A stretch of DNA of 64,000 bases from Octopus vulgaris (Eukaryota), in contig OX597843.1 of the NCBI GenBank assembly GCA_951406725.2, forward strand, positions 17,980,001 through 18,044,000, given 5' to 3'. The notes beneath the pieces were generated by a model. That model was given only the letters and a program-made list of their open reading frames with translations, did no database searches and was not told where the DNA came from. Every line of letters starts with the position of its first letter. The first letter of the stretch is position 1. Made by a program: the position numbers and the translations under genes. Of the stretch, positions 16,771 through 44,700 are shown one piece after another.

Positions 16771-17179
16771 ATGGAAATGATTAGAGGTTGGTGGCAGGAA
16801 GGGCATCCTGCTGTAGAAAGCATGGGAAAATGGATGTTAAGTAATGATCATCATCATCATCATTTAGCGTCCGCTTTCCTTTCTAGCATAGGTTGGACGG
16901 TTCAACTGGGGTCTGGGAAGCCAGAAGGCTGCACCAGGCCCAGTCTGATCTGGCAGTGTTTCTACAGCTGGATGTCCTTCCTAATGCCAACCACCCCGTG
17001 AGTGTAGTGGGTGCTTTTTACATGCCAGACGGGGCTGGCAAACGGCCACGGTCGGATGGTGCTTTTTACATGCCACCGGCGCGGGGGCCAGGCGGATAAC
17101 AAATCGCAGCAAAGAAGGAAAACATGAAGTAACAAAAGCATTTTAGAAACAATAATATAAAAAAAAAGGGGCTCCTTAC

Positions 17180-18352
17180 CTGTCCAAAAACTGGCATCTC
17201 CCATAAGGACTCATTTGTGATTTTGTTAAAGAAGTAAGGCCTGTTCTCACGCTTGCTCCAAAACTTTCGCCAACCAGCTTGGAGTAACTCAGGGGGCAGA
17301 TCATGCACCGGGTCGGGAAACTGGGCCTGCGGCGACATGGGGAAGGTGCTGTTCTGTGGTGATTGCAGGGCAGGTGGTGTGAAGGAATCTTGGCTGTTTG
17401 CTGCCGTCGCCGTTGGTGACGACAGCGACAGTTGGCTGGTCACCACAGCAATCGGTGATGTGCTGGTGACAGAGGTGATGCCCGTGGCGGCGGCGGTGGT
17501 GGAAGTGGACGTAGAGACAGTGGAGGTGGTGAAGATGGTGGAGGGGTTGATTGTGGTTATGGGAGGGGTGTGCGTGATGTTGTTGTTGTTGTTGGTAGAG
17601 TCAGCTTCCATGCTGGAAGAGATGGGGTTTGCAGCGTTTGCGCAGTGAGTCTCCGTTGTTGACATGGTAGTGTTAGTAGCAACAGTAGGACTACTACTAC
17701 TACTACTACTTGAGTTAGTGGTGGTGGTGACAGTGGTAAAGGTGGTGGTGGTGGTGGTGGCGTCAACAGCGGTGCTGGCTGGGGCTGTGGAATCAAGGGA
17801 GGAGGAGGAAGCGGCAGCGGCTGCAGCAGCATTGTTGGCGATGATAGTGGCGGTGTTGTTGGTGGTGGAGATGGTGATGGTGAGGGATGGCTTTGATGAT
17901 TTGGATGACTTTGTCACTACTGCTGACGTCAGTGATGATGATGATGGTGGTGGTGGTGATGATGAAGACGACGTTAATGATGATTGTAACGATGACGACA
18001 CCGTCGTCACTGTCTTCGACCCAGTGAGAGGAGGACAGAGGTTGCTGATGGTGGTGTTGGTGGTATTGGTGGTAGTGGTGGTGGTGGTGGTAACGGTGTG
18101 GTTGGCAGCATTCCTCGCGCTTGTTCTCCGCTTGCGTTGCGGTCGCTGCACCTTACCCCCCTTCCTCTCCTCCTCTTCCTTCACGCTCTCCTCTTCCTCA
18201 GCATCTTTCTTGCTCTCCACCTCAAACACAGTCAGTGCCTGCGCGATAACAGAGTGGTCATCAACGCCATCAGCCGAGAAGAGGTCGGTTTTGGCCAGGT
18301 GGACTTCTGTGTCGATGGTCAGGTCGTCCCTTTGTTGACAGAGTTCGGACAT
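17180..18352 (-). CDS. PCIF1: PCIF1 first coding exon (exon 17180-18377, ATG at 18352): long S/T/A-rich N-terminus followed by the WW domain
   Basis: Ends LPPELLQAGWRKFWSKRENRPYFFNKITNESLWEMP, the PCIF1-type WW domain. Acceptor tctttgcAG at 18379-18378; donor CAG|GTAAGG at 17179-17178, phase 0. The start codon choice is inferred. Confidence 0.9.
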
Positions 18353-26879: not shown

Positions 26880-29461
26880 CCCCAATCCCAGGAAGTCACC
26901 AGCCCACATCTTCCGCACCCTCAGAGTTGGCACATCGAAAGGTAGGTCTGGTGAGATCGTTGAGATGCTAGAACAGAGATGTGTTGATTTGTGCTGCGTC
27001 CAAGAAGTAAGGAGGAGACAAAGTTCTGCTTGGTTCCTCACAAGCAAAGAACATAGGTATAAGATTTTATGGGTAGGAAACACTGATGGAGTTGAGGGCA
27101 TGGGTATACTTCTTGCAGAGAACTGGGTTTATAAGGTAATCAAGGCAGTCAGAGTCTGTGATAGAATACTTAAGCTTAGACTAGTACTAGAACATGGATT
27201 AGCAACCATTATCTCGGCCTATGCCCCTCAGCCAGGGCTACCTGATGACAGAAAGACTGGTTTTATGACACCATCCTGCAGACTACCTTGTTGACAAATG
27301 ACAGGGACCTTCTCTTTGTGGCTGGCAACTTCAATGGACATGTTGGACAACATCCAGGGAGTTTTTATAGTGTACATAGTCGCAATGGATTTGGTTCCCG
27401 CAGTGAGAGAACCAGGCTGCTGGAGTTCTGTGATGCAAATGATCTTATGATCTGTAATAACTAATTTCAGGAAAGCTGCCAGTCAATGTAGCTGACAGAG
27501 CCATTAGGAAAAAGAAACAGGCGAGGAAGCAGTGGAAGTGTGGTGGTAGCAGGGATCTGTATCAGGTTGCCAGAAGGGAAGCTAGGAGACAGGTTTACTT
27601 AGCCAGAGGGGAAGCAGATAAGAAGAAATTTGCGCATCAGGAATCAGTGGTGAGATGTTTAAAATATCTGGTGGTGTAGGATATAGTCTAGTCACCTGTA
27701 CAGTTAACTAAGTGATACACGAAGGAGTCATACCGAAAGATTGGTGTAACAGCACCATAGTCAACTGCAACAAAGGTAAAGGTGATGCCTTAGAAATAAT
27801 TAGAGGTATCAAATTATTGGATCGGGTGATGAAAATAACAGAGAGGGTCAACTAATTAGGGAGAGAGTTAGTTTAGATGAGATGCAGTTCGGGTTTGTGC
27901 CAGGGAGAAGCACCACTGATGTTATATTTCTGGTAAGACAGCTGCAGGAGAAATTCCCAGCCCAAGATAAACCTCAGTACTTAGCTTTTGTTGACATAGA
28001 GAAAGCTTTTGACAGGGCCCTCCAATCCCTTATCTGGTGGTCAATGCAGAAACTAGGGTTAGATGGATAGATCAGTGGTTGGTGAGAGCTGTACAAGCCA
28101 TGTACAGAGATGCTGTCAGTAAGGTGAGGGTTGGTAACGAGCATAGCAAAGAATTCTGGGTAGAAGTAGGGGTACACCAAGGATCAGTCCTCAGCCCCCT
28201 CTTGTTCATCATAGTCCTCCAGGCAATAACAGAGGAATTCAAGACAGGATGCCCCTGGGAGCTCCTCTATGCTGAAGCACTATCAGAACTGGAGAAGAAG
28301 TTTCAGTTGTGGAAGCAAGGATTAGAATTGAAGGGCCTTAGAGTCAATTTAGCTAAAACCAAAGTCTTAATAAGTAGGAAAGCAGACAAACCACAAATTC
28401 TTTCAAGTAGATGACCCATAAACTGTACCTGGTGTAAGCTAGGTGCAGCAATATCAAAGGAAGGCTCACTGGGAAGATAGTTCTTGTATGGAAGATAGAC
28501 AGGTGCAATAAACACCGAAGATGTACAGAAAACAGATCCCATCACATACCAGGGGGAAAAACTAGAAGTAGTTGATAGCTTCCATTACCTAGGTGACCAA
28601 GTCAGTAGTTGGGGTGGATGCTCTGAGAGCATAACTACTAGAATAAGAATAATCTGGGCAAAGTTCAGAAAGCTCCTGCCTCTGCTGGTGACAAAGGGCC
28701 TCTCGCTCCGAGTGAAAGGCAGACTGTATGATAGCTGTGTGCGAACAGCCATGCTACATGGCAGTGAAATATGAGCTGTGACTGCTGAGGACATGCGTTG
28801 GCTTGAAAGAAACGAAGCTAGTCTGCTCCACTGGATGTATAATGTCGGTGTGCATATAATAGAGAGTGTGAGCACCCTGAGAGAAAAGTTGGATATAAGA
28901 AGCATTAGATGTGGTGTGCAAGAGAGACGACTGCGCTGGTATGGCCATGTGTTGCGTATGGATGAGGACAGCTGTGTGAAGAAGTGTCACACCCTAAAAG
29001 TAGAGGGAACCTGTGGAAGAGGTAGACATGGGATGAGATGGTGAAGCACAACCTTTGAACATTGAGCCTCACAGAGGCAATGACAAGCAACCGAAACCTT
29101 TGGAGATATGCTGTGTTAGAGAAGACCCAGCAAGCCAAGTGAGATCATGGTCATGGCCAATGCCAGTGTTGCATAACTGGCTCATTTAAAAGTATGCTGT
29201 TGGACAATATGCCATGCTTGTGAAGACCGGTTGAATTGAGTGAAATTGTAGTCGTGGCTGATGCCTGACTGGCACCCATGATGGTGGCACGTAAAAGCAC
29301 CCACTACACTCTCAGAGTGGTTAGCATTAGGAAGGGCATCCAGCTGTAGCAGCCTTGCCAGATCAGATTGGAGTCTGGTGCACCCTCATGGCTTGCCAGT
29401 TCTCAGTCAAACCGTCCAACCCATGCCAGCGTGGAAAGCAAATGTTAAATGAAGATGGTGA
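26880..29461 (+). mobile_element. Internally deleted, frameshifted RTE-clade LINE (APE endonuclease + RT + 3' UTR)
   Basis: LCCVQEVR..GVGIL..ISAYAPQ (endonuclease); MQFGFVPGRSTTD..AFVDIEKAFD..VGVHQGSVLSPLLF..LLYA (RT, DD motif deleted); RRLRWYGHV C-terminus. Confidence 0.93.
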
Positions 29462-31265: not shown

Positions 31266-31441
31266 TTGTTGCACAACACAACATCCAAGGGATACAGCAC
31301 TTAGAGTGTTGTTCAAGCTGTGTTAGAAATATCAGCTAAACCTCCCTCAAGGCACACCCTACTGTCTTATGTATGTACGAGCCAAAGCAGGAGACCTCTG
31401 CCAGCCAAATCTTCCTCTAATCACACCTGACTGTTTTATGT

Positions 31442-31732
31442 ATGTATGTATTAGCCAAAGAGGCAGACATCTACATGGTAGCTAGACCTGCTAGAAATAG
31501 CAGCCAAATATTTATCAAAATTACACCCTACTGTCTTATGTATGTATTAGCCAAAGAGGCAGACCTCTACATGGTAGCTAGACCTGCTAGAAATAGCAGC
31601 CAAATATTTATCAAAATTACACCCTACTGTCTTATGTATGTATTAGCCAAAGAGGCAGACCTGTACATGGTAACTAGACCTGCTAGAAACAGCAGCCAAA
31701 TTTCCCCCAAACAACACCCAACTGTCTTATGT
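31442..31732. repeat. 96-bp tandem repeat, 3 copies (plus degenerate flank)
   Basis: Unit tatgtatgtattagccaaagaggcagac...aattacaccctactgtct; visible as a 32-aa repeat in ORF 31442..31798. Confidence 0.9.
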
Positions 31733-37099: not shown

Positions 37100-37380
37100 A
37101 AAAAAATACAAACTGGGACAAGAACGCAAAACATTTAGAAGACGATACAAAAAACGCGGACGGGACATTCGAAGCCTTCAATCTTCAGTCAAGAACCGGA
37201 TCATCCTCGCAATTTTGGCTGATTAATCTTGAGATTGCTCCGACCTGGCCAGCCCCAAAGGAAAATCTAAGCCAAGCGCATTAGATTCCTTGCAAGAAAA
37301 CCTCAAATGTCTAAAAAACAAGGACGGGAACGAATAAGAATACAAAAATACGTAAAAATAATAATGATAACAAGAATACG
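37100..37380 (-). mobile_element. Microsatellite-inserted element, related copy at ~50040-50270 (+)
   Basis: Shared ggcc....ggagca..ctcaag...gactga.gat...gaatg pattern; both copies are flanked by (AT)n. Confidence 0.5.
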
Positions 37381-37381
37381 A

Positions 37382-37412
<31 letters not shown>

Positions 37413-37439
37413 AAAGGGTGAAAAGGAACACACGAGTTG

Positions 37440-37871
37440 ATATATATGAAAAAACAAGTCAAAATAGAAAATGCTAAAATAATTTTATAAAGAACATTTC
37501 AGTACCGGTTTCGGTCATTTTGAGACCTTTTCAACTGTAACGATTAAATAATTAAATTTAGAAAAATTAGAAGAAAAGTTTTTTTAAAGGAATATTTGTA
37601 TAGTGTTCAAATATAAGTGGCATTCTGCCTTTCTCTGACTCCCTTGTTTGCACTTGTGTGCAAACAAGGGAGTCAGAGAAAGGCAGAATGCCACTTATAT
37701 TTGAACACTATACAAATATTCCTTTAAAAAAACTTTTCTTCTAATTTTTCTAAATTTAATTATTTAATCGTTACAGTTGAAAAGGTCTCAAAATGACCGA
37801 AACCGGTACTGAAATGTTCTTTATAAAATTATTTTAGCATTTTCTATTTTGACTTGTTTTTTCATATATAT
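37440..37871. repeat. 432-bp palindrome: 214-bp arms (37440-37653 / 37658-37871), 4-nt spacer; a hammerhead motif in each arm
   Basis: Centre ...cttgtttgcac ttgt gtgcaaacaag...; I found no mismatch between the arms by eye. Confidence 0.95.
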
Positions 37872-38849: not shown

Positions 38850-40530
38850 ACGCTAGAAATAACATCTTGCTGAAACCACACCCTACCACTTTAAATGGTG
38901 GAAAGACACGTTCGATGATGTAGTCCTAGATACACTGTGCCTGAATAAAAGACAGGATGGTCACAACTGGTGCATCAACTGGATCAGGACTGACCCTGGG
39001 CTAAACAACAAGGAAAGACATTTAAAAGGTCATCACTTCAATGTCATAGAACAAAAATGAAATCTCCTTCAGATCCAATTCTCATGTGGTTAAAAAAATA
39101 AAAAGAGCACATTTCATAAGTTAGTCTCAGATAGACCATGTCAGAATAGGAGCCAGGATGCCAGCTGGAGTGCCTTTGATCAATTAGGACTGACTTGGGG
39201 TTAAACAACGATAAGGGTACATTATATAATGTAGTCCTAGATACACTGCGGCTGAATGAAAGACAAGATGGTTACAGCTGGAACATCACTGATCAAAGGT
39301 CTACTGGATCTGGACTGACCTAGGGCTAAACAATAACAAGGACAGGAGATCATGTAATCCTAAATATACTATGTCAAAAAGACAATGGTAACAGGTGGAA
39401 CATCTTTGATAATAAATCTACTGGATGGGAGCTGACCTGGGGTTAAACAACTGCCTTCATAACACATAATCTGACATAGACACAGGACTTCCAGGTCTCA
39501 ATCCAACCATGCCCACCTGCACCATCTGTGTCTGTACTTCTCGCATTTCAAATATCAAGCCTATACGTGGTTGCCCAACCTGTTAAAAATAAACCTCAAA
39601 TCATAACCTACTGTCTTGTAAAAAGGAAGGACACGCACAGGATAATATGATCCTAGGTACACAGTGTCTGAAAAAGAAAAAAAGAAAAGTTGGGATGGTC
39701 ATGGCTGGAATGCCTATTGATGGTAGATTTTATTGGATCAATACTGGCCTGGAGTTAAAAAAAAAACAATGACAAGGCAGGACACATTAGATGATGTATG
39801 CTTAGATATACTATGCCTGAATAAAAAGATCAACACAGCTGGAATATAATCACAAGTTTGTTGAATCAGGTGTGACCTAGGGCTAAACAAGAACAAAGAA
39901 GATACATTAGACTATGTCTGAATAAAAGACATGATGGTCACAGCTGGAACGACTTTGATCACAATCTTGGAAATCAGGACCGACCCAGGGCTAAACAAGA
40001 ACAAAGAAAGACACATTAGATATTGTAGTCCTAGATACACTATGTCTGATGGTCACAGCTGGAACACCCTTGATTGAAGGTCTGTTGGATCAGGGCTGGT
40101 CTGGAGCTAAACAAGGAAGGACACATCTTTATATATAAAATTGAAGTTGTGTGTGTGAGACTCTGTCTCCTCCGATTTAGATTCCTAACTACTCCCACAT
40201 TTTGCGGGTATCTTGTAGTCGTCATTCATATCGAGCCCTTCTGGGTATTAGCACGCGTCTACCATGAGTCTACGATTTTAAAAAAAATTTACCATCATTT
40301 TTCCGCATTTTTAATGATTTTTGCTCGGGTTATATAAGTAACTCTCTAAAAATGCTTATATAGTTATTTCCCTTACAAACCTGAGCGATACTGCTAGTTA
40401 GTCCTAGATGCACTATGTCCAAATAAAAGACAGGATGGTCACGTTTGGAACATATTTAATCAGGGGCTTGTTGAATTAGGACTAAGTCTAAACAACTACA
40501 AGAAAGACAAATTAGATGATGCAGCCCTGG
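38850..40530. repeat. Degenerate tandem array (~115-125-bp units) of a SINE-like 3' module
   Basis: Repeated gtagtcctagatacact...aaaagacaggatggtcacagctggaa...ctgacctagggctaaacaac. The module also occurs at ~4070-4146, 42560-42920 and 53000-53430. Confidence 0.75.
40126..40397 (+). mobile_element. Non-autonomous Helitron-like element inserted at A|T inside the degenerate array (hairpin deleted)
   Basis: TC...CTAG ends; body homologous to 33266-33565. Confidence 0.75.
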
Positions 40531-41371
40531 ATCTGCTCCCAGGGCCTCGTTAAATTGGTGCTAAACATCAGGGTTCCCATCTGTTTTCTTATAGTTTCTG
40601 CCATATTGCAGGTATTTACCATTTCTTCATCATGGACTTATATCCTAAGACAGAGGTAAGTAACCAGATTTGGTGGTGGGCCAGGGTGGAAAGGTGGTTT
40701 CATATGTTGTGAGTCAAAGTAAATAAAGAAAATGAAACCCTAACCATACAAAACTTTAGAAAGATCTGGGTTTTTTTTAAAATGCCACTTGTTGAAGCAA
40801 AGGAATCGTTACAACATTTAATGAGTTTCAAATTAGTATGCATCACGTGTGACCCAGCATGTAGTGAAGAGTTAAAAGCAGTTTTAATCAGGCTGAATGG
40901 AAGTGGTTGTGGGCTTTTGTAGTTGATGTGGGGGTCAACCAGTTTCGTGGAGGCACATGGCCTAGTGGTTAGAGCAGTGGACTCGCGGTTGAGGGATAGC
41001 GGGTTCAAATCTCAGACCGGGCGATGTGTGTGTTTATGAGTGAAACACCTAAGCTCCCCGTGGCTCCGGCAGAAGGTAATGGTGAGACTTCTGCTGACTC
41101 TTTCGCCACAACTTTCTCTCACTCTTTCCTCCTGCATCTTGCAGCTCACCTGCGATGGACCGGCATCCCATCCAGGTGGGGAACCTATATGCCAAAGAAA
41201 CCGGCCTTTATGAGCCAGGCATGGCTCGAGAAGGAATAAACAAACAAAAACAAACAACCAGTTTTGCTGATCCCCTCAACAGACAAATGGTTTTAATCAC
41301 TCTCTCCCTACTTACAATCACTCATACATATAAACTATATTGAAAGCAATGGTAGGGGACCCATTTTCCTT

Positions 41372-41757
41372 TCAGCCTCAAACTGGGAGATGCAAGTGGA
41401 TCTGAAGGGCAGACTTGTCTTCTCAGAGGAGATGGTGGTAACATCACTCCAACCAGACATGTTCCTGCTCTTCAGGAATATGAAAACAATAATTGTGGTC
41501 GAACTTACTTGCCTTGAGAGGACTTAACTGAAATTTCCTATCAGATAAAAACAAAATAACGGAATTTAGTCAATGACGCCCCTATCAAGGTCTGGGATGC
41601 AGCCTCATTCCCCATTGAAGTCAGCTGTTACAGTTTTCCAGCCAAATCAGTGAGTGGTTTAAGACAGGACTGGAACCCAGACAACTGAAGAAAGCCATCA
41701 TGGAAAGATGCACAGCAGTTGAAGCTAGATCAAGATGGCTATGGTTGATGAGAGATT
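41372..41757 (+). mobile_element. Decayed HERO-like non-LTR retrotransposon, restriction-like endonuclease region
   Basis: WEMQVDLKGRLVF..VTSLQPD...IIVVELT...FPIEV.C..F...SRWLWLMR resembles the HERO REL domain (RPD..ELTVPWE..PIEVGCRGF..SRWLW). Confidence 0.7.
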
Positions 41758-44700
41758 GCAAGACGAACCCTTTTGTAGGTAAAAACTAGCTCAGTCTTTC
41801 CTGCCCCACTCAGGAGTTCAAGTGGTTAGGTCAGGTGTGTGCATGTGGAGGGGGAGGGCATAGCACCAGTTATCGGTAAATTGTTGGGCGACCCACTGAG
41901 CAGAATCCAGTTAGTCCCCATCTCCAGATTCCTCCTCATCTGCCGTTAGCATGTGGCATGGGTTAAACAGCACAAGCTGTCAACCCCACTGGTACCCTCG
42001 GTGAAGAGAGCGCAATAAGCAGGGTCTAACTCAGACTACTGAGCAACATGGCCTAACAGTATGAGCTGATGCTCCTGAAACATACAAGGAACGGGGTACA
42101 TCTCAGTTTCTGAGTAGAATCGTTGGAGATGAGATCTGACAGATGGTACCCCACAATCCTGTGAAACATCCTGGTAGCAAAGTAGTTCGGGTGGCTCTTG
42201 AGGGCCCTGGAACAGTGTCAAAGTCTCATAACTATAGAACAGGACAAGAAGGACCAGAGACATTGGGATCCAAACCTTTGTCCTCCTGTGTAGATATCAG
42301 CAGCACCAAACACCCTTGTCCATCGAGTCCACAACTGCACCAGCTCATCCAAGTCTCTTTAGGATTTCAGACTTGCAACCAATGTCACTTTTAATCTTAA
42401 TGCTGAGATAAGTGAAAAGGGGTCAACAACTTTCACAATCTCACCCACTACGGAGACAGTCGAGGTGGAATCCTCCAAAGAACCAACGAAGGACTGAGGA
42501 TCAGAACAAATAATGCATTTTACCCAACTCTCATACAAAACTGCCAAACAATAGATACATTGTGTCTGAAAAACAAAATAAAACAAGATGGTCATGGCTA
42601 GAATACATTTGATCTGCTTAAGGACGAACCTGGGGCTAAACAAGGAGGAGGAGCACATTACATTATGTAGCCCTACATACATTTTATCTGAAAATCAAAA
42701 AAGTAAATGAGATAGGATAGTCACAGGGGGAATATTTTTGATCTGCATAAGGGCTGACCTAGGGCTAAACAACAAGGAGGGAGAACACATCACATAATAT
42801 AAGTCCTAGATGCACTATACCTGAAAAACAAAAAAAAAGAATGAAAGGTAGGATGTTCAGGGATGGGATGTTTTCAATCAGAAGTCTGCTGGATCAGGCC
42901 TGACCTAGGGTTAAACAACACTTCAAACGATAGTTATTGCAGTAAGAGAGAATGTTGTTGTTGTTGATATTATCATCACTTAATGTCTGTTTTCCATGCT
43001 GGCATGGGTTGGATGGGTTGAACTGATAAGCCACAGGATTAAGCTAAGCTCTGCTGTCTGTTTTGGCAGGGTTTGTACAACTGGATGCTCTTCCTAACAG
43101 CAACCACTCCAGACTGTACTGGGAGCATTTCACATGGCACCAACACAAGTGAGGTCACCAGGTAACCCACGAGACAAGACCCTTTATTCCAGGATCAGAC
43201 CCTTTGCATGGAACCTTGGGCAAGTGTCTTCTACTGTAACTCCAGCTTGAGCAAAGCTTTGTGAGCGGATTTGGTAGACGGAAACTGAAAGAAGCTCATC
43301 ACATACATGTGTGTGTGTCCGTGTGTCCGTCCACCACCACTGCTTGACAACCAGTGGTGGTTTGCTTACAACACCTGTAAGTTAGCAGTTTAGTAAAAGA
43401 AACTGATAGAATAAGTCCTGGGGTTGATTTGTTTGACTGAAACCCTTCAAGGCAGTGTGCCCCAGCATGGCCACAGTCAAATGATAGAAGCAAGTACAAG
43501 ATATACACCCACCCACACAAAAACAGGTTATCAAATGCCGTACAACATAAATTTTGGATTCGAAGTCGATATAGAACCTCATCCGACGACAGGCACCCAT
43601 GCCAACCCCCTTTGCTTGCGAAGACATGTTGGGGAAATCGAAATCGAATTGAACCAGCCAGGATCCCTGGTCTGGTGGTACGTAAAAAGCACTATCCGAC
43701 TCGTGGCTGATGCCAGCGTCGCCTCGACTGGCTTCCGTGCCGGTGGCACGTAAAATACACCAATCTGACCGTGGCCGTGGCCAGCCTCGCCTGGCACCTG
43801 TGCAGGTGGCACGTAAAAAGCACCCACTACACTCACGGAGTGGTTGGCATTAGGAAGGGCATCCAGCTGTAGAAACATTGCCAGATCAGACTGGAGCAGC
43901 CTCCTGGCTTCCCAGATCCCCAGTCGAACCGTCCAACCCATGCTAGCATGGAGAATGGACGTTAAACAACGATGATGATGATGATGATGATGATGAACTC
44001 TGCCAAACTGCAATTAAGACAAGATAACCTCAAGATTGAAAAGTGCTCCAAAGTTAACATGCTGTTGCGAAAAGGGACAGGCAATGTCTGGCAACAAGAG
44101 GACAGTTATGGATGTGTTTTTGACTCAATAATCATTGCCAGCACATGATGACCTTCTTTCAGTTCACATCTACCAAATTGACACACAGAGGTTTTGATTA
44201 ACCCAGGGCTATAATAAAAGATACTTGCCTAAGGTGCCGTGCAGTGGGACTGAACCTGGAACTATGTAGTTGGTAAGGAAGCTTTGTAATCCAACAGTCA
44301 TGCCAGTGCTTAACCTTTAGGATGCTTCAGCCTATCATGTTACTGTATGAGTTTTCTCCAGGTGCATTGTGTTGCATTGAGAGGGGAGAAAACTCATGCA
44401 GTGACATGATATACCTACAGCATGCTAAAGGTTAAATTAATTAACAATAAAACTTGTTGCTTGTATGTTCTGATGTATTCAATTCTTTAGCAATTAAACC
44501 AGTCGTATCAGACCCAAATATTCTGTCTGTTTTATGCCCAAACTGGCCACATCTGGCTTCTCACACCTACCCTACAATGTCATTCTAAAAATAAACAACT
44601 ACATAATTGAAATCTTGAAGCTACAAGGTAGCTGCATGATTAATTCAAAACAACGAGAAGAAATAAGAGTTATATTTGATAGAGTAATCTAAATTTTAAA

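What the first reader, a model, noticed from the sequence alone, without database searches (positions are those of the whole stretch)
37440..37871. 432-bp palindrome carrying a U3-A8 variant hammerhead on both strands
Seen: 214-bp arms with a 4-nt spacer. Plus strand 37774-37811 reads CAG-TTGAAAA-GGTC tcaaaat GACC-GAAA-CCGG-TA-CTG, mirrored at 37500-37537. Established: C3-G8 pair in the hammerhead core, so TTGAAAA is a compensatory U3-A8 double change; ACCGGT is a palindromic helix III suited to dimer cleavage at GUA; Penelope elements often form inverted pseudo-LTR structures. Inference: a young insertion. As RNA it would fold into 214-bp dsRNA (ADAR/Dicer substrate, masking the ribozyme); as DNA it could extrude a cruciform.
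Basis: partly seen in the sequence, partly recalled or inferred. Interest (0 to 1): 0.7.

Follow-up and report, generated by a model that had tools for sequence, protein, structure and literature searches.

The report
Head-to-head stub of Neptune-type Penelope retrotransposon
This mirror-image DNA is a real but ordinary footprint of a young, common jumping gene of the Penelope kind: two short copies of its end joined head to head, each with a known variant of a predicted self-cutting RNA, likely made when both strands of a cut TA repeat copied the same RNA from two neighbouring start points.

Summary
Observation confirmed: perfect 214-bp arms, 4-nt centre, and a minimal hammerhead with a U3-A8 core on each strand. 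The arm is the 3' pseudo-LTR of a young Penelope-like element. Longer copies carry RT, a CX4CxxC linker and GIY-YIG, and the genome holds 1,765 exact copies of the 38-nt hammerhead. The insertion is 30 bp longer than reported: one arm carries the known Penelope 'tail' (37410-37439).

The U3-A8 variant, palindromic helix III, opposite-strand pairs, inverted pLTRs and one-sided tails are all published. What the copies add:
- Exactly one arm is tailed in 23 of 23 unselected pairs, 41 of 45 short palindromes and 15 of 15 sister-family pairs.
- The tail side is independent of arm length.
- Arms share their subfamily type (0 of 53 discordant).
- 5 of 49 centres have no loop.

This favours priming from both target strands over cDNA fold-back (about 65%). 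Long copies also hold two ORFs overlapping at U-UUU-UUA. Cleavage, transcription, editing and cruciform extrusion are untested. This scan noted both the twin-priming reading and the frameshift many times before, on other DNA.

The parts
37382..37409 (.). (TA)n target repeat, left flank
   Evidence: sequence
37410..37439 (-). 30-nt Penelope 'tail', on the left arm only; in a tandem copy it lies between the pLTR and ORF1
37440..37660 (-). left arm: 5'-truncated pLTR copy starting 123 nt upstream of the hammerhead; 37440-37447 is the internal AU-rich stretch
37500..37537 (-). minimal type-I hammerhead, U3-A8 core, mirror copy (cleavage predicted, not shown)
37651..37660 (.). head-to-head junction: 3-nt microhomology around a 4-nt centre that is native to the minus-strand copy; the same junction occurs at two other loci (L151, L175)
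37658..37871 (+). right arm: 5'-truncated pLTR copy starting 116 nt upstream of the hammerhead; no tail; ends at the internal AU-rich stretch 37864-37871
37774..37811 (+). minimal hammerhead: core 37777-37783, helix II 37784-87 with 37795-98, GAAA 37799-37802, palindromic helix III 37802-37807, predicted cut after A37808
37872..37893 (.). (TA)n/(AGAT)n right flank; a target-site duplication cannot be discerned in the microsatellite
   Evidence: sequence

Best explanation
The palindrome is one insertion of two 5'-truncated copies of the 3' pseudo-LTR of a young Neptune-type Penelope-like retrotransposon, joined head to head in a TA repeat, and it likely formed when both nicked target strands primed reverse transcription of the same element RNA. 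Shown: family identity, copy number, tail asymmetry and junction types. Inferred: the GIY-YIG enzyme nicks both strands of (TA)n. One 3' end pairs with the internal AU-rich stretch (tail-less arm) and the other with the AU-rich stretch about 40 nt further 3' (tailed arm). Both cDNAs stop in a hot spot 116-146 nt upstream of the hammerhead, at the RNA's 5' end or a structural barrier. Their free 3' ends are joined through 0-4 nt of microhomology or with short templated inserts. The hammerhead is a passenger of the pLTR. In this locus it is predicted to be masked, because any read-through transcript makes the antisense arm first.
For: Family: RT (RVT_1 33.8 bits, cut-off 29.6) and GIY-YIG (23.5 bits, cut-off 22.6) lie upstream of the arm in longer copies, and L064 is a pLTR-tail-ORFs-pLTR tandem with period 4,386. 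One tail per pair: 23 of 23 pairs found from the first 100 listed exact matches, 41 of 45 scorable short palindromes (4 of 49 unscorable), and 15 of 15 picked sister-family pairs, read by eye. Two arms choosing independently would give at most 50% (p about 1e-7 for 23 of 23); only 13 of 51 solo copies are tailed. Tail side is independent of length: among the 23 pairs the tailed arm is longer in 7, shorter in 11, about equal in 4 and unclear in 1; in short palindromes it is 15 longer, 21 shorter, 5 equal (p 0.41). The window's own junction occurs with the tail on either arm (L175 versus L151). Five of 49 centres are perfect palindromes with no loop, which a hairpin primer cannot easily make. 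Same template: 0 of 53 pairs differ at two or more subfamily sites, against 46% of random pairs. Hot spot: 26 of the 44 copies ending within 400 nt end at 120-160. In vitro precedent: PAc nicks and extends both strands and starts at two adjacent RNA sites that bound the tail (PMC11167929).
Against: All mechanistic steps are read from genomic scars. Two-tailed pairs exist (L031, L037, L142, L164), and two scored tail-less (L155, possibly a shifted miss that scored tailed; L176, a double palindrome). The recurrent 2-4-nt-loop junctions with 3-nt microhomology, including the window's, fit fold-back equally well. Identical arms could also come from two RNAs of one source locus or from gene conversion; five of 27 pairs showed 4-19 arm differences (L045, L046, L047, L050, L052), not all inspected. 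No single cap-derived extra base marks the hot spot, so 'RNA 5' end' is not shown. Copying one RNA twice needs strand displacement, which is untested for PLE RT.
Confidence: 0.65

Rival explanations
1. Fold-back self-priming. A single cDNA (or an antisense RNA, as proposed by Arkhipova et al. 2013) snaps back through 2-3 nt of microhomology and copies itself; endonuclease resolution then leaves the tail on one side.
For: Proposed in print for head-to-head PLE palindromes (PMC3846280 discussion passages), and tail formation is attributed to endonuclease resolution in PMC8557442. The window's centre is a 3-bp stem with a 4-nt loop, and 14 of 49 short junctions have a 3-nt overlap. It explains identical arms without strand displacement.
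Against: In its simple form the tailed arm must be the longer, loop-bearing one. It is shorter in 11 of 23 and 21 of 41 cases. Five zero-loop centres, and 10 of 49 joins with no overlap, fit it poorly. It needs an extra step to remove exactly one tail at either side.
Confidence: 0.22
2. Twin priming on two separate RNAs held by a protein dimer, usually from the same source locus.
For: PAc is predicted to be a dimer (PMC11167929). It needs no strand displacement and explains the two-tailed pairs. An earlier scan note (e1-9536500) reports mixed arms in about a tenth of pairs of another family in this genome.
Against: In this family 0 of 53 pairs mix subfamily types, though at least four types are common. 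Independent RNAs give no simple reason for exactly one tail.
Confidence: 0.1
3. Assembly or library fold-back artefact, or a palindromic mini-element that moves as one unit.
For: No contig bridging the window's junction was seen (uninformative). L175 shares the window's junction and a rare tail variant.
Against: The mirror stops exactly at the internal AU-rich stretch, and the tail and flanks are not mirrored. The same spot gives 54 matches per strand with many different centres, across several subfamily types. L175 has a deletion in both arms that the window lacks.
Confidence: 0.03

Closest known systems
EN+ Penelope-like element insertions with an inverted 5'-truncated pLTR and a one-sided 30-40 bp tail (Adineta Pen2a, PMC3846280; overview PMC8557442)
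   Same: Head-to-head inverted pLTR, tail at one end only, 5' truncation, microsatellite target, hammerhead in the pLTR.
   Different: Here both arms are reduced to pLTR stubs, giving a perfect palindrome. The near-strict one-tail rule and its independence from arm length are quantified. No target-site duplication can be discerned in (TA)n.
[quoted passage not shown]
   Same: Type I, U3-A8 core, G10.1-C11.1 pair, short helix I, small palindromic helix III, predicted dimer activity, opposite-strand pairs 100-700 bp apart.
   Different: Helix II is 4 bp, without the usual extra base before it. The motif is highly uniform (1,765 exact copies), more like the D. virilis case than the variable Schistosoma families. 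The cut site is GUA, so U3 can mispair with A17.
Neptune/Nematis clades of EN+ PLEs (definition from PMC8557442 passages)
   Same: C-terminal GIY-YIG with two internal cysteines and two downstream histidines, CX4CxxC linker, DKG motif, (TA)n target.
   Different: Two overlapping ORFs with a U-UUU-UUA heptamer instead of one ORF. The figure legend there allows an optional frameshifted ORF1 with a pseudoknot; I could not see for which clade, and no downstream structure was predicted here. No tree was built.
PAc, Poseidon of Anolis (PMC11167929)
   Same: Two adjacent RT start sites bounding the tail; both strands nicked and extended; uncut RNA as the main template.
   Different: In PAc the start sites lie inside the ORF in an AC-rich stem-loop with no homology to the target. 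Here they lie upstream of ORF1 at AU-rich stretches that match the (TA)n target.
L1 twin priming (recalled; no call)
   Same: Two target ends prime on one RNA and the cDNAs join by microhomology.
   Different: L1 gives an inversion of non-overlapping parts; here both arms copy the same stretch.

Membership tests
EN+ Penelope-like element | Reverse transcriptase followed by a C-terminal GIY-YIG endonuclease | tested here: met
   In longer copies continuous with the arm: RVT_1 33.8 bits, above cut-off; GIY-YIG 23.5 bits, above cut-off, in L039 and 21.1, just below, in L063. The window copy itself has no coding part.
EN+ Penelope-like element | Pseudo-LTRs from tandem or partial tandem arrangement | tested here: met
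   L064: two hammerheads 4,386 nt apart around the ORFs.
EN+ Penelope-like element | Inverted 5'-truncated copy and optional 30-40 bp tail | tested here: met
EN+ Penelope-like element | Hammerhead motif in the pLTR | tested here: met
EN+ Penelope-like element | Single ORF (usual description; an optional frameshifted ORF1 appears in the Fig. 1 legend of PMC8557442) | tested here: not met
   Two ORFs overlap in the -1 frame in 6 of 6 fetched copies spanning the site; 98 of 100 listed of 135 matches keep six T, 2 have seven. This departs from the usual description but is a listed option, so it is not taken as excluding.
EN+ Penelope-like element | Target-site duplication | tested here: inconclusive
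   Both flanks are (TA)n.
Neptune/Nematis clade | CX2-5CxxC linker between RT and EN; CCHH-type motif in EN | tested here: met
   C-x4-C-x2-C before GIY-YIG, and CxxC plus two histidines, read by eye; a loose C-x2-5-CxxC pattern is in the last 190 residues of 120 of 120 listed homologues.
Neptune/Nematis clade | RT phylogeny groups with named Neptune (versus Nematis) elements | not tested
   The homologue list carried no PLE clade names; no tree was built.
Minimal type-I hammerhead ribozyme | Core C3/U3-U-G-A-N-G8/A8-A and GAAA, helix II closed by G-C, U16.1-H17, helix I around the cut | tested here: met
   Rfam HH9 only 20.9 bits, below gathering 52
Minimal type-I hammerhead ribozyme | Palindromic helix III allowing a double hammerhead | tested here: met
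   Predicted only: cofold -27.1 versus -9.8 kcal/mol per monomer.
Minimal type-I hammerhead ribozyme | Self-cleavage at GUA | not testable with these tools
   Indirect look: about 8 of 31 listed TA-adjacent truncations within a 31-nt span start within 2 nt of the site (counted by eye); biased pattern, no clear spike.
Non-LTR retrozyme | Head-to-tail tandem monomers with canonical hammerheads and no ORF of their own | tested here: not met
   Copies are head-to-head or solo, and continuous with an RT-EN ORF.

The most novel reading that the evidence does not exclude
Neptune-type Penelope elements integrate by obligatory two-site twin priming. The two nicked strands of a TA repeat each pair with one of two AU-rich sites about 40 nt apart on one RNA, so the published 'optional tail' and 'inverted pLTR' are a single product of one reaction. 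The same element makes its RT-endonuclease by a -1 ribosomal frameshift at an HIV-type U-UUU-UUA site.
Probability: 0.5. Interest if true: 0.55.

Novelty: new member of a known kind. Interest (0 to 1): 0.3.

Why it matters
The locus itself is ordinary: one of dozens of near-identical palindromes of a known architecture, with a published ribozyme variant. Its value is as data on an open question, named as such in PMC8557442: how Penelope elements make inverted repeats and tails. A young family with many copies gives counts (one tail per pair, tail independent of length, same template, loop-less centres) that separate twin priming from the published self-priming idea, and it points to a direct in vitro test. 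The scan has already reached the same reading in other families, so this adds a replicate rather than a discovery.

Tried and rejected
- Read support for the window's junction: only Logan contigs were served. No listed piece bridged the centre in 4 + 4 runs. This is uninformative and was not used as evidence.
- No RNA holder was listed, so expression, editing, small RNAs and RNA ends were not examined.
- miRNA-family hits in Rfam are hairpin artefacts below gathering.
- Ribozyme cut recorded in 5' ends: no clear spike.
- Cap-derived extra base at the hot spot: not at one fixed site among about 44 listed loci.
- A long-range pLTR stem pairing the hot-spot region with the tail is in the MFE and centroid folds, but z = -1.1. 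It stays a lead only.
- Covariation search: the pattern was one base too long and returned only 13 insertion variants. Discarded.
- Searches used a copy-private letter and were superseded.
- The junction columns used a wrong reference stretch and were redone.
- The frameshift could not be checked in the sister family, because L191 is truncated there. No stable structure follows the slippery site (-2.9 kcal/mol). Many listed homologues have a methionine just before the first conserved motif, so they may not need a frameshift.
- MITE reading rejected: the arms are continuous with an RT ORF.
- A search of scan notes by sequence found nothing.

Full report
Observation. The palindrome is as described: arms 37440-37653 and 37658-37871, 214 nt, 100% complementary, 4 nt apart. 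The motif at + 37774-37811 has the stated parts and is mirrored at - 37537-37500. A minimal type-I hammerhead scan over both strands of the window found only these two sites, and none in 20 shuffles. Rfam support is weak (HH9, 20.9 bits, gathering 52).

What the arm is. A DNA search of the genome with one arm gave 1,154 candidates; 40 were scored, giving 43 matches at 98-100% identity. The exact 38-nt hammerhead occurs 1,765 times, with 0 for the control. Upstream of the arm, longer copies run into an RT and GIY-YIG frame. L064 is a tandem copy with period 4,386: pLTR, tail, an ORF1 of about 410 residues with no Pfam match, a 784-residue RT-linker-EN frame, a low-complexity 3' region, then the pLTR again. 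A C-x4-C-x2-C linker and a CCHH-type pattern place it with Neptune/Nematis as defined in PMC8557442 (passages and section 15 read; figures not visible). No tree was built. The window copy holds only pLTR sequence. That the host is an octopus is my recollection from its repeats and the wording of earlier scan notes, not a call result.

True limits. The left arm continues for 30 nt (37410-37439) as the Penelope tail, and the right arm stops at an internal AU-rich stretch; both then meet (TA)n. The centre belongs to the minus-strand copy, which starts 123 nt upstream of the hammerhead. The plus arm starts at 116, with 3 nt of overlap. A sequencing fold-back would mirror the tail and the flanks; it does not. 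A pattern for two exact 17-nt arms within 30 nt of each other at this spot gave 54 matches per strand with many different centres, two of them identical to the window's. The structure is therefore recurrent. Direct read support was not obtained.

What is already known. Cervera and De la Pena (PMC4209133; parts 1-2 of 4 read) report the U3-A8 core in Schistosoma PLEs, small palindromic helix III variants, opposite-strand pairs 100-700 bp apart, and low in vitro activity only as multimers. Arkhipova et al. (PMC3846280; passages) describe inverted pLTRs, a tail on one of them and junction palindromes, and propose self-priming on an antisense template. Craig et al. note that the tail is often at one end only and call the mechanism open. 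Frangieh et al. (PMC11167929; parts 1-2 of 4 read) show that a Poseidon protein nicks and extends both strands, starts at two sites bounding the tail, and uses mainly uncut RNA. Of the retrozyme preprint I saw the abstract and outline; of PMC13282606 and PMC5408684, passages only. No supplements were read; they may list this family. Two searches for a twin-priming account of PLE inversions listed no PLE paper using that term, but the library lacks most subscription journals.

What the copies show. I fetched the surroundings of the first 100 listed exact matches, all on contig C1 (the one on C1 at 70.86 Mb within L064). They give 23 head-to-head pairs, and all 23 have a tail on exactly one arm. 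Of five further pairs picked by similarity, three have one tail (window, L066, L067) and two have two (L031, L037). Among 49 short palindromes's list, three of which overlap the sets above, 41 of 45 scorable have one tail, 2 have two, 2 scored none, and 4 were unscorable. In a sister family whose ORF is 57% identical, 15 of 15 picked pairs have one tail by eye. Solo copies are tailed in 13 of 51. The tailed arm is longer in 7, shorter in 11, about equal in 4 and unclear in 1 of the 23 pairs; in short palindromes the split is 15, 21 and 5 (p 0.41). Arms share subfamily-diagnostic sites: none of 53 pairs differ at two or more, against 46% of random pairs. Five of 27 pairs did show 4-19 differences in a 100-190 nt alignment. 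5' ends cluster, with 26 of the 44 ends within 400 nt falling 120-160 nt upstream of the hammerhead. Centres show overlap of 1-4 nt in 24 of 49, no overlap in 10, and inserts in 15, several visibly templated from nearby arm sequence; 5 have no loop at all.

Mechanism. The simplest account (inferred) is that both nicked strands of (TA)n prime on one RNA at two AU-rich sites about 40 nt apart. That forces exactly one tail, leaves the two lengths free, and gives identical arms. Both cDNAs often stop in the same hot spot, which yields near-perfect palindromes such as this one, and the free ends are joined by end-joining repair. Simple cDNA fold-back predicts the tail on the longer, loop-bearing arm, and a loop at every centre; both predictions fail, although fold-back plus later trimming of one tail is not excluded. 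Two-RNA priming explains the rare two-tailed pairs but not the rule. I stated the twin-priming reading before seeing earlier scan notes. Those notes repeat it for other families and are not independent support.

The hammerhead. Two copies are predicted to form a double hammerhead through helix III (-27.1 versus -9.8 kcal/mol per monomer). In both monomer and dimer folds U3 pairs with A17, a possible brake. At this locus any read-through RNA makes the antisense arm first, so the motif would be trapped in duplex (-342 kcal/mol for the 432 nt). Whether the locus is transcribed is unknown. Truncations at the predicted cut site are few and show no clear spike. A sister family has U3 with G8 beside the same helix III, so the 3-8 pair varies among relatives in this genome.

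Side finding. In 6 of 6 fetched copies spanning the site, ORF1 overlaps ORF2 in the -1 frame, with an in-frame U-UUU-UUA, and 98 of 100 listed copies keep this spacing. The first methionine of ORF2 lies after a motif conserved in homologues. A programmed -1 frameshift or slippage is likely but untested, and no stimulatory structure was predicted. An optional frameshifted ORF1 is mentioned in the Fig. 1 legend of PMC8557442, and earlier scan notes report the same feature.

Verdict. Real, young and correctly recognised as a Penelope inverted pLTR with a U3-A8 hammerhead. It is a new member of a known kind, useful as a replicate for a mechanistic question. Interest 0.3.

Noticed in passing
L064, L047, L057, L058, L063, L081 (ORF1/ORF2 junction, about 3,030 nt upstream of the 3' hammerhead): Two overlapping ORFs with an in-frame U-UUU-UUA heptamer; 98 of 100 listed copies keep six T. 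Candidate -1 frameshift, with no downstream structure predicted.
   Followed up: partly
L124-L130, L177-L191: Sister Penelope-like family (ORF 57% identical) with a smaller hammerhead (U3 with G8, very short helix II, same helix III) that also forms head-to-head pairs with one tail. L064 ends in a junction that runs directly into this family's pLTR.
   Followed up: partly
L121, L127, L122: Further hammerhead-like variants with the same palindromic helix III: older relatives with U3/G8 (L121, L127) and a C3-G8 type (L122).
   Followed up: no
window 17177-18350, minus strand: Exon-like frame with a WW domain whose best PDB match is PCIF1 (E 1.4e-18), after a long Thr/Ser-rich stretch. The palindrome lies about 19 kb upstream on that strand; whether it is inside the transcript is unknown.
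   Followed up: partly
L031:3618-3910 minus strand (pLTR RNA): The tail is nearly complementary to the region where 5' ends cluster, giving a predicted long-range stem around the hammerhead; z only -1.1.
   Followed up: partly
window 37100-37340: A different, very high-depth repeat between two TA runs just left of the insertion; not identified.
   Followed up: no
window 38900-43000 and 31350-31730: Arrays of diverged 110-150 nt repeats, and three 96-nt tandem copies.
   Followed up: no
window 28013-28411 plus strand: Fragment of a LINE-type reverse transcriptase (RVT_1, E 7e-9).
   Followed up: no
L052; L176; L037, L047, L055, L063: L052 has both arms ending at the same base with (TA)n between them. 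L176 is a double palindrome. Several long insertions hold a third rearranged segment at the inner junction.
   Followed up: no
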